Shown: positions 507 to 11,689 of the stretch, in pieces
How the letters are laid out: every line of letters begins with the position of its first letter
Numbering within the stretch: position 1 is the first letter of the stretch
IMG/VR virus record: IMGVR_UViG_3300000290_000191
Source of the DNA: a virus
Lineage: Duplodnaviria; Heunggongvirae; Uroviricota; Caudoviricetes
Length of the DNA: 12,662 nucleotides
Direction: 5' to 3' (one strand)
Made by a program: the position numbers and the translations under genes
Notes under the pieces: model-generated
What the model was told of the DNA's origin: nothing
Databases searched by the model: none
Seen by the model: only the letters and a program-made list of their open reading frames with translations

Positions 507-867
507 ACATCCCGGTTTCTTCCACCATCGCACCGGAAAAGCGACTATGAGGGTAACCCTGCGTCTGTCAGCACAGTAAAACCCGGTGTGCATCGTTTTT
601 GATTATTCCCGCACACTCACGCAGAAGGAATTCCCCGTCGGGCTACGGTCATGGTTAATGCGGGAATACGGCGACGATACAGCGCAGCTAAAAGGGTAAT
701 GGACAGATAGAGCGGTTTATTTCATTCCACAGGATTCTGAGTGCCCCCCCCTCCTCCAATAGGCTGAGCATCCACCTATATAGTTTTAATTTTCATCAAT
801 CCATTTAACTATCGTTTAATTGTTGTCACATAGGATTCTGCCGTTTTTAACAATGCAGGATAATAAG

Positions 868-1243
868 ATGAAAAAAATGTTGTTTTCTGCCGCTCTGGCA
901 ATGCTTATTACAGGATGTGCTCAACAGACGTTTACTGTTGGAAACAAACCGACAGCAGTAACACCAAAGGAAACCATCACCCATCATTTCTTCGTTTCGG
1001 GAATTGGGCAGAAGAAAACTGTCGATGCAGCAAAAATTTGTGGTGGTGCAGAAAATGTTGTTAAAACAGAAACCCAGCAAACATTCGTAAATGGATTGCT
1101 CGGTTTTATTACTTTAGGCATTTATACTCCGCTGGAAGCGCGTGTGTATNNNNNNNNNNNNNNNNNNNNNNNNNNNNNNNNNNNNNNNNNNNNNNNNNGG
1201 CATTTATACTCCGCTGGAAGCGCGTGTGTATTGCTCACAATAA
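868..1243 (+). CDS. bor: Bor-family outer-membrane lipoprotein (lambda Bor / DLP12 BorD-like); coordinates include an N-run and a 33-nt exact duplication that are probably an assembly artefact
   Basis: Translation MKKMLFSAALAMLITGCAQQTFTV...ITLGIYTPLEARVY matches Bor; lipobox LITGC; AGGA RBS 7 nt upstream of ATG 868; C-terminal segment GIYTPLEARVY encoded twice (1117-1149 and 1199-1231) flanking 49 N; true gene likely 97 codons. Confidence 0.88.
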
Positions 1244-1274
1244 TTGCATGAGTTGCCCATCGATATGGGCAGCT

Positions 1275-3250: not shown

Positions 3251-4365
3251 ATGGCGATGTCTGCTCAGGCAGCTGAAATTTATAATAAAGACAGTAACAA
3301 GCTGGATCTATACGGGAAAGTTAATGCCAAGCACTACTTCTCCTCTAATGATGCAGATGATGGTGATACTACTTATGCCCGTCTTGGCTTCAAAGGTGAA
3401 ACCCAAATCAACGATCAACTGACTGGTTTCGGTCAGTGGGAATATGAATTCAAAGGCAACCGTGCTGAATCTCAAGGTTCTTCCAAAGACAAAACCCGTC
3501 TTGCATTTGCAGGCCTGAAATTTGGTGATTACGGCTCCATCGATTACGGCCGTAACTACGGTGTAGCATACGACATCGGTGCGTGGACTGACGTNNNNNN
3601 NNNNNNNNNNNNNNNNNNNNNNNNNNNNNNNNNNNNNNNNNNNNNNNNNNNNNNNNNNNNNNNNNNNNNNNNNNNNNNNNNNNNNNNNNNNNNNNNNNNN
3701 NNNNNNNNNNNNNNNNNNNNNNNNNNNNNCGCACTACTGGTGTTGCAACTTATCGTAACAACGACTTCTTTGGTCTGGTCGATGGCCTGAACTTTGCTGC
3801 TCAGTATCAGGGTAAAAATGACCGCACTGACGTAACTGAAGCCAATGGTGATGGTTTCGGTTTCTCCACTACTTATGAGTATGAAGGATTCGGCGTGGGT
3901 GCAACCTATGCTAAATCAGATCGCACTGACGGTCAGGTCGCCTATGGTAAGAGCAAATTCAATGCCTCCGGCAAAAATGCGGAAGTATGGGCTGCAGGCC
4001 TGAAATATGATGCGAACAATATCTATCTGGCTACCACATATTCTGAAACTCAGAATATGACCGTTTTTGGTAATAACCATATTGCAAACAAAGCACAAAA
4101 CTTTGAAGCAGTAGCACAATATCAGTTTGACTTCGGTCTGCGCCCATCTGTTGCTTACCTTCAGTCAAAAGGTAAAGACCTTGGTGTTCATGGTGACCGA
4201 GACTTAGTCAAGTATGTCGATGTCGGTGCTACTTACTACTTTAATAAAAACATGTCTACTTTTGTTGATTACAAAATCAACTTAATTGACGATAGTAAGT
4301 TTACCAAAACAGCTGGTATTGATACCGACGACATCGTCGCTGTAGGTCTGGTTTATCAGTTCTAA
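3251..4365 (+). CDS. nmpC: OmpC/NmpC/OmpD-family general porin (prophage-encoded); 5' end and signal peptide lie inside N-run 3105-3240, second N-run 3595-3729 inside the barrel
   Basis: Translation ...[32 protein letters not shown]...GFGQWEYEF...[30 protein letters not shown]...[30 protein letters not shown]...[21 protein letters not shown]...VAVGLVYQF with terminal Phe is a classical 16-strand porin; frame before and after the second N-run differs, so N-run length is not exact or the gene is disrupted. Confidence 0.88.
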
Positions 4366-8169: not shown

Positions 8170-8433
8170 TTACGCAGCTGAACCGCTAACTTTTGAATAG
8201 CACTCAGGTAATCCATCATTTGGATTGGGGTAAATATCAGGACGCAGTTCATGAGGGGTCACGGACCAGTTTCCCAACTCACAAAGTTGTAAAACCCGTT
8301 CTGACGGGACTTGATTGTTAATTACCCAATTAGCGACGGATTGAGTGGACTTAAAACCAAAGTGACGGGCTACTTCAGATAAAGATTTTCCCGCAGCTTT
8401 TACTGCTTTCTCTGTGTAGTTTTGAGATGACAT
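8170..8433 (-). CDS. Cro-like small HTH regulator (YdaS-type)
   Basis: 87-aa product with HTH-like GKSLSEVARHFGFKSTQSVANWVINNQ; divergent from the cI-like repressor across an operator-rich spacer; AGGAGA RBS 5 nt upstream of ATG 8433. Confidence 0.7.
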   Translation of the reverse strand: MSSQNYTEKAVKAAGKSLSEVARHFGFKSTQSVANWVINNQVPSERVLQLCELGNWSVTPHELRPDIYPNPNDGLPECYSKVSGSAA

Positions 8434-8441
8434 ACCTTTCT

Positions 8442-8502
8442 CCTCTGAAATTCAGAGGGATGATGCTACTTAAAATAGCAGAATGCAACTACTTAAAATA
8501 GA
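8442..8502. promoter_or_regulatory. OR-like divergent promoter/operator region between cro-like and cI-like genes
   Basis: Perfect 17-bp palindrome CCTCTGAA-A-TTCAGAGG (8442-8458) overlapping the cro RBS, plus two related near-palindromes GCTACTTAAAATAGC (8465-8479) and ACTACTTAAAATAGA (8488-8502) spaced 23 bp apart. Confidence 0.5.
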
Positions 8503-9244
8503 AATGACTAGCGTATGTGATGCGAGTAACCTTCTACCTATGGTAGAAGAACAGAAGTATCCAGATTTCGCCAAGAGACTAAACGAGCTAATGACAAACA
8601 AGGGAATTTCTGTCACCCAACTCAAAAGTCTTGTGGGCGTTACATATGAAATGGCGCGGCGATACACAATCGGCGCTGCGAAGCCTCGTGCCTCTGTCAT
8701 GAATAAACTTGCATTGGCTCTGGGGGTATCAGCTTCATATTTAGAATATGGTGTTGGCGAGAGAGAAGGATGTAAGGAAATGGCAAGCATCCCCAATCCA
8801 ACAAAACCCGATGTATACAGGATAGAAGTTTTGGATCTTAGCGTTAGCGCAGGACCTGGAACCTATATGCTTTCAGACTATGTTGATGTGCTCTACGCCA
8901 TTGAGTTCACAACAGAGCATGCCCGTTCTCTTTTCGGTAATCGTTCTCAAGATGATATTAAAGTTATGACTGTAAATGGCGACAGCATGTCCCCTACTCT
9001 AGTTTCCGGAGATCGACTGTTTGTCGACATTTCTGTTCGCAACTTCCAAACTGATGGTGTTTACTCTTTCGTTTATGGTAAGACGTTCCACGTTAAACGT
9101 CTACAAATGCAAGGCAACAAACTCGCCGTTCTTTCGGATAATCCAGCCTATGAGAAATGGTACATTGATGAGAAGTCCCAAGATCAACTTTATGTTATGG
9201 GCAAAGCATTGATACACGAATCAATTAAATACAACCGGCTTTAG
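8483..9244 (+). CDS. cI: CI-like prophage repressor: N-terminal HTH and C-terminal S24 (LexA-like) autopeptidase domain
   Basis: HTH-like LNELMTNKGISVTQLKSLVGVTYEMARRY; Ala-Gly candidate cleavage site in SVSAGPG; Ser nucleophile motif GDSMSP and Lys in HVKRL; start uncertain (8483, 8504 or 8540; none has a clear SD, consistent with a leaderless PRM-type transcript). Confidence 0.9.
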   Translation: MQLLKIEMTSVCDASNLLPMVEEQKYPDFAKRLNELMTNKGISVTQLKSLVGVTYEMARRYTIGAAKPRASVMNKLALALGVSASYLEYGVGEREGCKEMASIPNPTKPDVYRIEVLDLSVSAGPGTYMLSDYVDVLYAIEFTTEHARSLFGNRSQDDIKVMTVNGDSMSPTLVSGDRLFVDISVRNFQTDGVYSFVYGKTFHVKRLQMQGNKLAVLSDNPAYEKWYIDEKSQDQLYVMGKALIHESIKYNRL

Positions 9245-9414
9245 TTCTTCGTTTAGACTATAGAACTAAAGGTGAAAAAATAATATTTATCAAGCAAGTG
9301 CTATTACTAATAGTTGTTTTACTCTCTTATTTTTATTAAACATTATCATTAACAATATAAAATAATCACCCAGCGTAAATTACAATATGCTGGGGGTCGA
9401 AAGGATAGAGAAAT

Positions 9415-10491
9415 ATGACAAAATCAATTTGTTTTTTTAATCATAAAGGTGGGGTAAGTAAAACCACAACAACCTTCAATCTTGGATGGGCACTTGCGGA
9501 TGAAGGCAAGAAAGTATTGATGGTTGACCTTGATTCGCAATGTAATCTAACAGGAATGGTTCTTGGCTATGAAAAGATTGATGAGGGTTTAGATTCTTTT
9601 TATTCTAGCAGAGATAACTTAACTCTTGGACCTATTGTAGAATATTTGATTAATGGCGGACAACCTGAAGCATACCTTGAAAAAGAAACGGGAAAATTAC
9701 ACCCTACACTGCATGAAAACCTTCTGCTTCTTCCCGGACATTTAGATGTTTCGGACTTAGATTCACAGATAAGTGTTTCTCTAAAAATTGCTGCTGGTAT
9801 TCCTGCTACAAGAAATATACCAGGGAACCTGCCAAAAATATTACAGCTAATCGCCATGAAGAATAATATTGATTACATTCTTTATGATCTCAGCCCTAAT
9901 GTTGGAGGTTTAAATGAAGTAGTTCTCATGTCAAGTGACTATTTTATCGTACCTGTAGCTCCAGACTTTTTTTGCTGGCAAGCAATTCGCTCTCTCTCAA
10001 AAAATATACCTCGCTGGCACAAAGAATTAGCATTATTTAAAGAAAATAATGATGGTAACTCTTCACAATCAATTAAAAATGCACCGCAGTTTCTAGGTAT
10101 GATTCAGCAGAGATACAGGCCGCGTAAAGGAGCACCTGTAAAATCTTTCGAAAAATGGATGGCAGCTATCCGTGATGCTGTTGATTCGATCTTAGTGCCA
10201 AATCTAGAAAAAATTACCTGCATAATTCCACGAGATAAAGTGCAACATGCAATTAACAAAACAACAGTCAGTGGAGATTTATCAGCCTATGATCTTGCGC
10301 ATATTTCCGATTTCAACTCATTAATCGCAATAAGCCAACAACTAGCGACACCTGTTTTCTCCATCAGTGATCAGCAAATTCGCGATTCAGGGCAATTTGG
10401 GCATGCCTTAAATACAATGAAATCAAGCAGAGACGCCTTTAACGAACAATTTAAAGGGCTGGCTCAACGAGTTCTAGAACTTACAAAGTAA
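9415..10491 (+). CDS. Orphan ParA/MinD-family deviant Walker-A ATPase (358 aa) in the cI-downstream moron slot
   Basis: Deviant Walker A KGGVSKTT at residues 11-18, A-prime motif MVDLDSQCN, Walker B DYILYDLSP, and C-terminal region typical of ParA; no ParB-like gene or obvious centromere repeats adjacent; AT-rich relative to the phage backbone. Confidence 0.85.
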   Translation: MTKSICFFNHKGGVSKTTTTFNLGWALADEGKKVLMVDLDSQCNLTGMVLGYEKIDEGLDSFYSSRDNLTLGPIVEYLINGGQPEAYLEKETGKLHPTLHENLLLLPGHLDVSDLDSQISVSLKIAAGIPATRNIPGNLPKILQLIAMKNNIDYILYDLSPNVGGLNEVVLMSSDYFIVPVAPDFFCWQAIRSLSKNIPRWHKELALFKENNDGNSSQSIKNAPQFLGMIQQRYRPRKGAPVKSFEKWMAAIRDAVDSILVPNLEKITCIIPRDKVQHAINKTTVSGDLSAYDLAHISDFNSLIAISQQLATPVFSISDQQIRDSGQFGHALNTMKSSRDAFNEQFKGLAQRVLELTK

Positions 10492-10498
10492 TGCATGT

Positions 10499-10530
10499 GC
10501 CCGGCCGCATAACCGGGCTTTACTCTTCTT
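10499..10530 (+). terminator. Candidate intrinsic terminator after the ParA-like gene
   Basis: GCCCGG(10499-10504)/CCGGGC(10513-10518) stem with 8-nt loop followed by T-rich tract tttactcttctttc. Confidence 0.45.
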
Positions 10531-10686
10531 TCTCCCTGATTAATCTCATAAAAAACTCCCTCCTCATAATTCACTATGCTCAATACCTACTCCAACTTCG
10601 TGCGATATTTTCAGTTTACAGCATAGTAAATCAGCAAAAACATTTAACTTTCAATTAATTATAGAAAAATCATAGACAACAACAAA

Positions 10687-10736
10687 TATCTACTTTTTGT
10701 TGTTGATTTTTGCTACTTTAAGTAGCAACATAATGT
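10687..10736 (+). promoter_or_regulatory. OL/PL-like operator-promoter candidate
   Basis: Perfect 15-bp palindrome GCTACTT-T-AAGTAGC (10712-10726), one mismatch from the OR site at 8465-8479, plus half-site TCTACTT (10689-10695) and a 10-bp inverted repeat CAACAACAAA/TTTGTTGTTG; -10-like CATAAT at 10729-10734; lies 2.2 kb from OR, bracketing cI and the ParA-like gene. Confidence 0.4.
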
Positions 10737-10817
10737 AAGCTATCACGGACAGGCAGGACGCCCACGAAGTAGCCGCCGGTGGCGTATGAATGACCGGATG
10801 ATTCGTTAGCAACAAAA

Positions 10818-10851
10818 AAGCGCCCTACAGGACGCTTAGCTCTTTAACAAT
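10818..10851 (+). promoter_or_regulatory. boxA-like antitermination element preceded by a short hairpin
   Basis: GCTCTTTAACAAT at 10839-10851 matches the rrn/nut boxA core GCTCTTTAACAA exactly; hairpin AAGCG/CGCTT (10818-10837) immediately upstream; 31 nt before ORF 10882. Confidence 0.4.
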
Positions 10852-10881
10852 CTTAGTATCCCCGTAACAAAAGAGGGTTCT

Positions 10882-11175
10882 ATGGTCATATTCTGTGCTT
10901 ACGTTCATCCTAATGGATTTTTTATCAGCACCAACCAACAAGACGAATTCTGGATTCTACTTAGTAAGCAGGTCGGATGGGGACGATTCTGTCTAATCCG
11001 ACCAGAATCAGAATTTACAGAGAATGGAGGGCTTTTTGAATTACGTGAAATACGTCCGGCAGATGGTCAAGCCCCTGACCAAGTAATCGAATCGTCAGCT
11101 GTTTTATGGCGTCGGCAGGAAGCGTTCGAAGCTGAGAGAGTAATTTCTTCTTATCTTCAGTCGTGGCAGAAGTAG
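10882..11175 (+). CDS. Hypothetical 97-aa protein, first ORF downstream of the PL-like/boxA region (not N-like in sequence)
   Basis: ORF with AGAGGG RBS 4 nt upstream; product lacks an arginine-rich motif; overlaps an antisense ORF (11015-11233), so the coding strand is unresolved. Confidence 0.38.
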   Translation: MVIFCAYVHPNGFFISTNQQDEFWILLSKQVGWGRFCLIRPESEFTENGGLFELREIRPADGQAPDQVIESSAVLWRRQEAFEAERVISSYLQSWQK

Positions 11176-11276
11176 AACTATTGATGATACGTTCAAGTTC
11201 ACAGAGAGTCTCATCATGCAATCTTATTGTCATAATCCCAAGAATAGCTTTAAGACCTCCATCATCACGAATGAAA

Positions 11277-11600
11277 TCAATTNNNNNNNNNNNNNNNNNN
11301 NNNNNNNNNNNNNNNNNNNNNNNNNNNNNNNNNNNNNNNNNNNNNNNNNNNNNNNNNNNNNNNNNNNNNNNNNNNNNNNNNNNNTTCAGGAATATTTATA
11401 TTTATGCCATCCAAGTAATAATCAAGAGCATTCTTAATCAAGCCATGTTCTTCGAGATAAATTAAGTTCGAAATTAGGACATTATCATCTCCAAATGCGT
11501 CACGAACAGACTGCAACGCATCATCAGAAATTTCATAAGGATGAGCATCATACAGTATTTGTAACAACTGCCTTTGTGCACTTCTATCAAATTTGTCCAT
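11277..11600 (-). CDS. Small hypothetical protein with winged-helix-like N-terminal region (DUF2513-like pattern), interrupted by N-run 11283-11384
   Basis: N-terminus MDKFDRSAQRQLLQILYDAHPYEISDDALQSVRDAFGDDNVLISNLIYLEEHGLIKNALDYYL has the L-x-x-L-x-E-x-G-L-I pattern of small wHTH proteins; GGTGA RBS 9 nt upstream of ATG 11600; the 3' end depends on the true gap length and may instead continue in the frame of ORF 11015-11233. Confidence 0.45.
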   Translation of the reverse strand: MDKFDRSAQRQLLQILYDAHPYEISDDALQSVRDAFGDDNVLISNLIYLEEHGLIKNALDYYLDGININIPEXXXXXXXXXXXXXXXXXXXXXXXXXXXXXXXXXXN

Positions 11601-11689
11601 CTTAAATAATCACCATGTTATTGGGGGTATCAAGATTAACCGAATCCTTGTTGTTGGGGAATAACCAGGTCCACCTCGCCTGATGTGGC

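What the first reader, a model, noticed from the sequence alone, without database searches (positions are those of the whole stretch)
9245..10740. Orphan ParA/MinD-like ATPase in the rexAB-equivalent slot of the immunity region
The sequence shows a 358-aa ATPase with deviant Walker A (KGGVSKTT), A-prime and Walker B motifs, encoded on the same strand immediately downstream of the CI-like repressor, with its own terminator, in AT-rich DNA. It sits between an OR-like operator cluster (8442-8502) and a related perfect palindrome (10712-10726), the position lambda uses for rexAB and other lambdoids use for exclusion morons. ParA proteins normally work with a ParB partner and centromere repeats, and neither is evident here. 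A lysogen-expressed orphan ParA-like ATPase is therefore a candidate superinfection-exclusion or defence function that I cannot assign to any named system.
Basis: partly seen in the sequence, partly recalled or inferred. Interest (0 to 1): 0.75.

Follow-up and report, generated by a model that had tools for sequence, protein, structure and literature searches.

The report
Solo ParA-like ATPase beside prophage repressor
A lambda-like E. coli prophage carries, in the slot where lambda keeps rexAB, a lone ParA-type ATPase that is probably an anti-phage defence gene, because it swaps places with a proven defence gene and its distant relatives are paired with an RNA-cutting toxin.

Summary
Window 9415-10491 (+) encodes a 358-aa ParA/AAA_31 ATPase. 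It lies in a 36% G+C cassette bounded by the cI stop codon (9246-9248) and an OL-like operator island (about 10686-10731), and it has its own terminator. No ParB gene, centromere-like repeats or conserved partner gene were found.

It is the unnamed E. coli "ParA family protein" WP_000167381.1. Three lines of comparison point to defence:
- **Same slot as a proven defence gene.** In E. coli and Salmonella, prophages with nearly the same repressor carry either this family or GiPD474 there. GiPD474 is a published single-gene ParA-like defence protein, about 22% identical over the full length.
- **HEPN-linked relatives.** Members 30-42% identical are followed by a HEPN_RiboL-PSP RNase gene in 26 of 38 species-representative loci. 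In the ≥42% clade the count is 0 of 40. This matches the ParA/Soj-HEPN dyad and resembles RemAIN.
- **Defence-rich neighbourhoods.** The solo clade recurs beside CI or Arc repressors of unrelated phages and next to known defence genes.

Verdict: a new, untested solo variant of a known kind, most likely a lysogen-expressed defence ATPase. The mechanism is unknown and function is inferred only from comparison.

The parts
8464..8503 (.). OR-like operators: the 17-mer TGCTACTTAAAATAGCA (8464-8480) and a degenerate copy (8487-8503), between divergent cro (8170-8433, -) and cI
   Evidence: conserved in prophages that carry different cargo
8540..9244 (+). CI-like repressor (HTH_3 + Peptidase_S24). 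The ORF opens at 8483; RefSeq annotates the start that corresponds to 8540
9245..9414 (+). AT-rich spacer at the left cargo junction. Homology to related prophages ends at the cI stop (9246-9248). It holds a weak promoter-like match (9337-9366) and a hairpin CCCAGC-N14-GCTGGG (9370-9395) ahead of the ribosome-binding site
   Evidence: no evidence that the promoter is used
9415..10491 (+). 358-aa solo ParA-like (AAA_31) ATPase, identical to E. coli WP_000167381.1
10499..10528 (+). Intrinsic-terminator-like hairpin GCCCGG-N8-CCGGGC followed by a T-rich tail
10686..10731 (.). OL-like island at the right cargo junction: the palindromic operator TGCTACTTTAAGTAGCA (10711-10727) plus a weaker second site. 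It mirrors OR as a 46-nt inverted repeat and is the only stretch conserved between the three cargo variants

Best explanation
The gene is horizontally acquired cargo of the prophage immunity region. It is most likely expressed in the lysogen, either with cI from pRM or from its own weak promoter. It most likely protects the lysogen against other phages after their DNA has entered the cell.

The protein is a catalytically competent ParA-type ATPase from a clade that normally partners a HEPN RNase. This clade has lost the RNase and works alone, as the paralogous GiPD474 does.

Proposed mechanism (inferred, not shown): ATP binding closes a sandwich dimer. The dimer binds DNA non-specifically through the conserved arginine-rich strand-loop QQRYRPR, which aligns with the region holding the DNA-binding arginine of Soj. 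A phage cue then changes the ATPase cycle so that phage DNA replication or expression is blocked, either directly or through a host factor.

Shown here: fold, motifs, position, cassette boundaries, exchange with GiPD474, the HEPN-linked sister clade, and defence-rich neighbourhoods. Inferred: expression in lysogens, the defence phenotype, DNA binding, and the trigger.
For: - **ATPase identity.** ATPase motifs are invariant across 25 homologues that are 60-88% identical. The fold is ParA.
- **Cassette boundaries.** The cassette is bounded by the cI stop and the OL island.
- **Exchange with GiPD474.** It is allelic with a GiPD474 orthologue in E. coli and with GiPD474 in Salmonella Gifsy prophages. 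GiPD474 alone gives about 5 logs of protection against T4, Alf5 and FO1 in Salmonella and E. coli K-12, and is highly transcribed in lysogens (PMC12724215).
- **Homology to GiPD474.** Profile-profile comparison of the two families gives 99.1% probability over 308 columns, including the C-terminal motifs. Both have 3pg5 as their best solved-structure hit.
- **HEPN-linked relatives.** 26 of 38 loci at 30-42% identity carry a HEPN_RiboL-PSP gene with an intact RRNxIxH motif, usually overlapping the ParA stop by 17 nt. The count is 0 of 40 at ≥42%. Remote GiPD474 relatives show the same pairing.
- **A ParA + HEPN defence system in the same slot.** RemAIN of Gifsy-1 is a ParA-like ATPase plus a HEPN tRNase in this position (PMC13043305, PMC9879122).
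- **Recurrence in unrelated phages.** The same slot is used in Klebsiella and Pseudomonas lambdoid prophages and in P22-like phages ST160 and SE1. The gene lies beside Arc/Ant regions in Acinetobacter and Chromobacterium prophages.
- **Defence genes nearby.** In Desulfovibrio gigas (record listed as Megalodesulfovibrio gigas) it sits in an island with HicAB, DarTG and type I R-M. Neighbours of solo-clade members match MADS, RmrA, AriA, IetA, Drt2, MzaA, AbiLi and type IIG R-M models.
Against: - No phenotype, expression or biochemical data exist for this family.
- Identity to GiPD474 is only 22%, so function cannot be transferred by homology alone.
- No effector domain is visible. HEPN-linked and solo proteins have the same length (median ORF 357 and 358 aa), so how a lone ParA would stop a phage is unexplained.
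- PADLOC 2.0.0 has no model for it.
- The neighbourhood evidence has no matched control.
- Position next to a repressor also fits a regulatory or host-physiology moron.
Confidence: 0.6

Rival explanations
1. It is an orphan regulator or 'antitoxin' used as counter-defence. The solo ParA neutralises or titrates ParA-HEPN type systems of the host or of rival elements, or protects its own prophage from them. It does not itself defend.
For: Anantharaman et al. 2013 proposed the ParA/Soj-like ATPase as the antitoxin of the HEPN toxin in the dyad (PMC3710099). The solo clade keeps the full length of HEPN-linked relatives, so it may keep a HEPN-binding surface. Phages are known to carry orphan antitoxin mimics (general knowledge).
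Against: GiPD474, a solo protein with the same architecture in the same slot, is a defence gene when expressed alone in E. coli K-12. In RemAIN a separate protein, RemI, is the immunity factor and RemA is part of the functional unit. HEPN-linked members were found mainly in Chloroflexi, Cyanobacteria and Acidobacteria, not in enterobacteria. The position matches lysogen-expressed cargo, not early lytic genes.
Confidence: 0.1
2. It is a lysogeny or host-physiology moron. On this reading the ParA-like ATPase modulates the repressor switch, prophage induction, cell division, or the positioning of a host complex, as MinD, FleN, MipZ and BcsQ do. It is not a defence gene.
Against: The partner repressors belong to unrelated families: S24 CI, the 155-aa Gifsy repressor, and Arc. 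The same cI works with unrelated cargo or with GiPD474. NCBIfam scores for MinD, BcsQ and others are far below their cut-offs and cover only the P-loop. The gene also occurs outside prophages, in defence islands.
Confidence: 0.15
3. It is a genuine partition ATPase that stabilises an extrachromosomal or excised form of the phage. Its adaptor and centromere would be unrecognised or lie elsewhere.
For: ParA fold and motifs. PHROG and RefSeq name it 'ParA-like partition protein'.
Against: The prophage is integrated at tRNA-Arg and has an integrase. No ParB is annotated in the 41.5 kb read, no repeat arrays are present, and no neighbour is conserved across 105 ParA groups other than HEPN in the sister clade. 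The NCBIfam ParA_partition score is 55.8 against a cut-off of 180, matching residues 5-43 only. The cassette is interchangeable with non-ParA cargo.
Confidence: 0.05

Closest known systems
GiPD474 (Gifsy-1 of S. Typhimurium 4/74; Bosma et al. 2025, PMC12724215)
   Same: It is a single ParA/AAA_31 ATPase of about 360 aa directly downstream of the prophage repressor, with no partner gene. It occupies the same slot behind near-identical repressors in both E. coli and Salmonella. The two align over the full length, including the motifs QQRYRPR..AKSF / QNRSRTN..AKAF and DFNSLIAISQ / DGNTLAAIINH. Both have 3pg5 as their best PDB hit. Both families have remote members coupled to HEPN_RiboL-PSP.
   Different: Identity is only about 22%, and it is a separate, larger family: 5269 against 1082 database clusters. 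GiPD474 has a 20-residue N-terminal extension and the Walker A sequence GGVGKT rather than GGVSKT. GiPD474 has a demonstrated anti-phage phenotype; this protein has none.
RemAIN (Gifsy-1 of S. Typhimurium 14028s, STM14_3218-3220; Sargen & Helaine 2024, cited via PMC13043305 and PMC9879122)
   Same: RemA is a ParA-like ATPase immediately downstream of the prophage repressor. It is transcribed with the repressor rather than with the lytic genes. It is 27% identical to this protein over residues 5-213.
   Different: RemA has 279 aa and lacks the C-terminal part; the profile alignment covers only 172 columns. It works with RemI (immunity) and RemN (HEPN tRNase). No such genes are present in the window.
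ParA/Soj-HEPN gene dyad (Anantharaman et al. 2013, PMC3710099); here ParA + HEPN_RiboL-PSP operons
   Same: The ParA family is the same: 30-42% identity over the full length, E about 1e-75, and equal protein length.
   Different: The window and all 40 loci at ≥42% identity lack the HEPN gene. The dyad was predicted to be a toxin-antitoxin module and has not been characterised for this family.
Lambda RexAB
   Same: Same genomic position and logic: cargo between cI and OL, on the cI strand, between the two operator regions.
   Different: There is no sequence or fold relationship. RexAB is a two-protein membrane-depolarising system.
Canonical ParABS and MinCDE ATPases
   Same: ParA/MinD fold, deviant Walker A, A' and Walker B motifs.
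   Different: No ParB, MinC or MinE partner and no centromere. About 100 extra residues are present as insertions. Scores are far below the NCBIfam cut-offs.

Membership tests
ParA/MinD (SIMIBI) ATPase superfamily | Deviant Walker A KGGxxK[ST], A' and Walker B motifs, and ParA fold | tested here: met
Plasmid/chromosome partition ParA (ParABS) | Adjacent ParB or adaptor gene | tested here: not met
   No ParB is annotated in the 41.5 kb read around the identical gene. No neighbour is conserved in 34 and 105 ParA groups
Plasmid/chromosome partition ParA (ParABS) | Centromere-like repeat array near the operon | tested here: not met
   Tandem Repeats Finder found only two short arrays elsewhere in the window. 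The only repeats near the gene are the CI-type operators
Plasmid/chromosome partition ParA (ParABS) | Score above the curated NCBIfam equivalog cut-off | tested here: not met
   ParA_partition 55.8 against 180; RepA 40.8 against 348; SopA 21 against 725; matches cover the P-loop only
MinD | NCBIfam MinD score above cut-off, with MinC/MinE context | tested here: not met
   minD_bact 35.3 against 212.9; no minC or minE nearby
GiPD474 family | Solo ParA-like gene of about 360 aa directly downstream of a prophage repressor | tested here: met
   same slot as a GiPD474 orthologue in E. coli
GiPD474 family | Sequence membership (family members are ≥54% identical to GiPD474 among the best 120) | tested here: not met
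   22% identity, BLASTP E 1e-13. The relationship is homologous at profile level only
GiPD474 family | Protection against phages when expressed alone | not testable with these tools
   Requires plaque assays
ParA-HEPN dyad / RemAIN-like systems | ParA-like ATPase of the HEPN-associated clade | tested here: met
   30-42% identical over the full length to ParAs whose stop overlaps a HEPN_RiboL-PSP gene
ParA-HEPN dyad / RemAIN-like systems | HEPN RNase gene adjacent to the ATPase | tested here: not met
   A local HEPN HMM found no hit in the window, in the 41.5 kb IHE3034 locus, or in any locus at ≥42% identity
PADLOC-DB 2.0.0 defence families | Full-length match to a defence-protein model | tested here: not met
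   Only PDC-M28B, matching residues 3-40 (P-loop), E 6e-9

The most novel reading that the evidence does not exclude
The solo clade may be an effector-less immune ATPase. On this reading the ParA module, ancestrally the sensor or regulator of a HEPN RNase, has become sufficient by itself to stop phages. It might do so by ATP-locked coating or mislocalisation of phage DNA, or by hijacking a conserved host factor. The family spans at least 539 species genomes and many temperate phages. If true, this defines a new defence mechanism shared with GiPD474 and shows repeated evolution of stand-alone sensors from sensor-effector pairs.
Probability: 0.3. Interest if true: 0.8.

Novelty: new variant of a known kind. 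Interest (0 to 1): 0.55.

Why it matters
Prophage immunity regions are a rich source of defence genes, yet this protein is annotated only as a "ParA family" or "partition" protein. It is common. It occurs in 174 of 5426 complete E. coli genomes, in 5269 database clusters, and in at least 539 species-representative genomes. It is also found in isolated P22-like phages and in inovirus prophages.

This work links three things under one evolutionary group of HEPN-associated ParA-like ATPases: this family, the recently described GiPD474, and the long-predicted ParA/Soj-HEPN dyad. That gives a concrete, testable hypothesis for thousands of mis-annotated genes. It also offers a natural experiment, solo against HEPN-coupled clades, for asking what the ATPase senses and how a ParA protein without an effector can block a phage.

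Tried and rejected
- **Defence and naming libraries.** PADLOC-DB 2.0.0 gave no informative hit for the protein, for GiPD474, for RemA/I/N or for the ParA-HEPN pairs. NCBIfam gave only P-loop matches below cut-off.
- **Phage DNA search.** A megablast search of the phage collection found nothing. A protein-level search was needed to find ST160, SE1 and Pf1.
- **Literature.** Searches for 'ParA-like' with superinfection exclusion or anti-phage terms found nothing relevant. The RemAIN paper (PMC11840918) is not held, so RemAIN is cited second-hand.
- **P0010 is not GiPD474.** I first suspected that Salmonella P0010 (our family) was GiPD474. Primer sequences from the paper's Table S2 showed otherwise. 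They let me recover the true GiPD474 locus and the RemAIN locus.
- **Partner genes.** I clustered neighbours in 89 and then 176 loci. Only phage regulatory genes, and HEPN in the sister clade, recur. Other ORFs immediately downstream in the 42-48% clade have no common Pfam family.
- **phrog_3983 gene.** The minus-strand gene downstream was considered as a partner and rejected. It lies beyond OL, is convergent with its own terminator, and varies among prophages that carry the identical ParA.
- **Upstream promoter.** Aligning the regions upstream of family members shows a shared AT-rich -10-like/RBS block in many phages but not in the window. No promoter could be established.

Full report
**1. 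What is in the sequence**

All NCBIfam equivalogs for partition ParA, RepA, SopA, MinD and BcsQ match only the P-loop and score far below their cut-offs.

**2. Position in the prophage**

The window is a lambdoid prophage. Its genes include iss/bor, lysis genes, a Q-like antiterminator, a DUF968 protein, KilA-N, RusA, cII-like, cro/YdaS-like and an S24-type CI. The 1496-bp region is 100% identical in many E. coli genomes, and 174 of 5426 genomes hold a match. In IHE3034 it lies in a prophage integrated at tRNA-Arg (the DLP12 site, intD) and is annotated 'ParA family protein' WP_000167381.1. No ParB is annotated in the 41.5 kb read around it.

The repressor-type 17-mers lie at 8464-8480 and 8487-8503, between cro and cI, and at 10711-10727. 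The two regions form a 46-nt inverted pair. The ParA gene therefore sits between OR and OL on the cI strand, as rexAB does in lambda. It has a terminator-like hairpin at 10499-10518. The cassette has 36% G+C, against 43-51% around it. There are no tandem repeats near it.

**3. The slot is an exchangeable cargo site**

The cI gene occurs in 206 E. coli genomes: 109 at ≥99% identity, the same number that carry the full ParA region, and 95 at 90-95%. Behind the roughly 92%-identical cI variant with the same operators, two other cargoes were found:
- O145:H28 strain RM12761 carries a different 361-aa 'ParA family protein'.
- Strains KFu022 and CX08 carry two small genes of unknown function.

Homology stops at the cI stop codon (window 9246-9248). 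It resumes only in a 75-120-bp island around the OL operator (10660/10685-10734/10807), then breaks again until 11671/11849.

**4. Literature link**

A full-text search led to three papers.
- Kurasz et al. 2023 (PMC9879122) showed that the Gifsy-1 immunity-region genes STM14_3218-3220 are needed for RtcR activation. STM14_3218 is a ParA-like ATPase without a ParB.
- Sargen et al. 2026 (PMC13043305) name this locus RemAIN: RemA ATPase, RemI immunity protein and RemN HEPN nuclease, an anti-phage system.
- Bosma et al. 2025 (PMC12724215) describe GiPD474. It is a single 361-aa ParA/AAA_31 protein in the immunity region of Gifsy-1 of strain 4/74. It is highly transcribed in lysogens. Expressed alone, it reduces plating of FO1, T4 and Alf5 by about 5 logs in Salmonella LT2 and E. 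coli K-12.

Using the primers in that paper's Table S2 I recovered the GiPD474 locus (L093:5723-6805) and the RemAIN locus (L101).

**5. Relationship to these proteins**

The RM12761 protein is 93% identical to GiPD474. In E. coli, therefore, the window's ParA and a GiPD474 orthologue are alternative cargoes of the same slot. The same holds in Salmonella. A Gifsy repressor that is 94% identical is followed either by GiPD474 or by P0010, which is 73% identical to the window protein.

The window protein and GiPD474 are about 22% identical over their whole lengths (BLASTP E 1e-13). Family profiles align with 99.1% probability over 308 columns, including C-terminal motifs. Both have the uncharacterised 3pg5 (DIP2308) as their best solved-structure hit. 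RemA (279 aa) aligns only with the N-terminal 172-213 residues. The window protein is thus a paralogue of GiPD474, not a member of its family.

**6. The family and its contexts**

The family is large: 5269 clusters at E ≤ 1e-5, with about 60-65% identity across Proteobacteria. Relatives are encoded on 148 IMG/VR contigs.

Members lie directly after CI-type repressors in several unrelated phages:
- Salmonella, Klebsiella and Pseudomonas lambdoid prophages.
- The isolated P22-like phages ST160 and SE1, in the order c2, DUF3024 gene, ParA, gene 24.

Members also lie elsewhere:
- Next to Arc/Ant regions in Acinetobacter and Chromobacterium prophages.
- In a P4-like island of Desulfovibrio gigas, in the order integrase, AlpA, primase, ParA, HicAB, DarTG, type I R-M.
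- In an integrated element of Mannheimia.

Of 53 upstream neighbours scanned, 15 match HTH_3, 11 Peptidase_S24 and 6 Phage_CI_repr. No neighbouring gene is conserved across 34 ParA groups.

**7. The HEPN-linked sister clade**

A scan of one genome per species found at least 539 genomes with relatives. Among the best 80 loci, the gene immediately downstream is a HEPN_RiboL-PSP protein in 24 of 76 by Pfam. A local HMM raised this to 26 genome loci, plus an unannotated ORF in the Pf1-like inovirus prophage AY324828.

The split by similarity is clean:

| Identity to the window protein | Loci | With a HEPN gene |
|---|---|---|
| ≥42% | 40 | 0 |
| 30-42% | 38 | 26 |

In most pairs the HEPN gene overlaps the ParA stop by 17 nt. 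The HEPN proteins keep the RRNxIxH catalytic motif. ParA length is the same in both clades, with median ORFs of 357 and 358 aa. Across 105 ParA groups, HEPN is the only recurrent partner.

Remote relatives of GiPD474 (32-37% identical) are also followed by HEPN_RiboL-PSP genes. This is the ParA/Soj-HEPN dyad predicted by Anantharaman et al. 2013, who proposed the ATPase as antitoxin (PMC3710099). It parallels RemAIN.

Neighbours of solo-clade members in species genomes give strong PADLOC matches: MADS, RmrA, AriA, NsnB, IetA, Drt2, MzaA, AbiLi, type IIG R-M and PDC-S43. This comparison has no control set.

**8. Interpretation**

The most economical reading has two parts. The window protein belongs to a clade of HEPN-associated ParA-like ATPases that has shed the RNase. 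It has become stand-alone, lysogen-expressed cargo of temperate phages, like GiPD474.

I give about 0.6 to an anti-phage role. The molecular mechanism is inferred only. The proposal is ATP-driven dimerisation, DNA binding through the conserved QQRYRPR segment, and a phage-triggered block after DNA entry. The assignment of QQRYRPR to the region of Soj's DNA-binding arginine rests on my own knowledge of Soj R189.

The rivals and their weights are:
- Counter-defence or orphan antitoxin: 0.1.
- Regulatory or host-physiology moron: 0.15.
- True partition ATPase: 0.05.

**9. Novelty**

Solo and HEPN-coupled ParA-like defence genes in prophage immunity regions have been known since 2024-2025. The kind is therefore known. 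This family is distinct, unnamed, untested, absent from PADLOC 2.0.0 and routinely annotated as a partition protein. As far as the searched literature shows, the link made here between the solo clades and the ParA-HEPN operons is new. I rate it a new variant of a known kind, with interest 0.55.

Noticed in passing
window 10808-11670 (gene 11015-11600, - strand; terminator 10837-10818): A second variable cargo slot lies between the OL island and the conserved early-left genes. Here it holds a minus-strand gene (171 aa in IHE3034; PHROG 3983; no Pfam family) that is convergent with ParA and has its own terminator. E. coli prophages with the identical ParA carry different ORFs there.
   Followed up: partly
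window 8442-8458: A perfect 8+1+8 palindrome, CCTCTGAAATTCAGAGG, overlaps the cro ribosome-binding site. It is unrelated to the operator 17-mers and is conserved in prophages with other cargo. It could be an RNA hairpin or a binding site.
   Followed up: no
L103:4326-5025 and L104:4327-5026 (E. coli KFu022, CX08): An alternative cargo sits behind the same cI: two overlapping small genes (115 and 126 aa) with no significant Pfam match. This is an uncharacterised two-gene cassette in a slot that otherwise holds defence-type genes.
   Followed up: partly
L095:6025-6552 (AY324828, Pf1-like inovirus prophage): An unannotated 175-aa HEPN (RRNSIVH) ORF overlaps the end of the ParA-like Orf317. This filamentous prophage therefore carries a ParA-HEPN pair.
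   Followed up: partly
L094:4521-4862 (phage ST160) and L111:4418-4756 (Morganella): A 113-aa gene sits between the repressor and the ParA gene. The ST160 copy is annotated as a DUF3024 protein, and the Morganella copy matches PADLOC candidate PDC-S43 over its full length (E 2e-30). Whether the two are the same family was not checked.
   Followed up: no
L161-L190 (ParA-HEPN loci): The HEPN start overlaps the ParA stop by exactly 17 nt in most pairs across Chloroflexi, Cyanobacteria and Acidobacteria. This suggests translational coupling.
   Followed up: no
L262, L263, L266, L267 (IMG/VR contigs): Remote relatives of GiPD474 (32-37% identical) are followed directly by HEPN_RiboL-PSP genes. The GiPD474 family therefore also derives from, or coexists with, ParA-HEPN operons.
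   Followed up: yes
window 9370-9395: A hairpin, CCCAGC-N14-GCTGGG, lies about 20 nt upstream of the ParA start codon. It might affect translation or transcript stability.
   Followed up: no
window 820-1251 and 3251-4365: The prophage carries other morons: an Iss/Bor-type lipoprotein and an OmpC/NmpC-like porin gene. Several runs of N mask parts of the window.
   Followed up: no
L105:6001-9726 (Desulfovibrio gigas, record listed as Megalodesulfovibrio gigas): A solo-clade ParA lies in a P4-like integrative island directly beside HicAB, DarT-DarG and a type I R-M system.
   Followed up: partly
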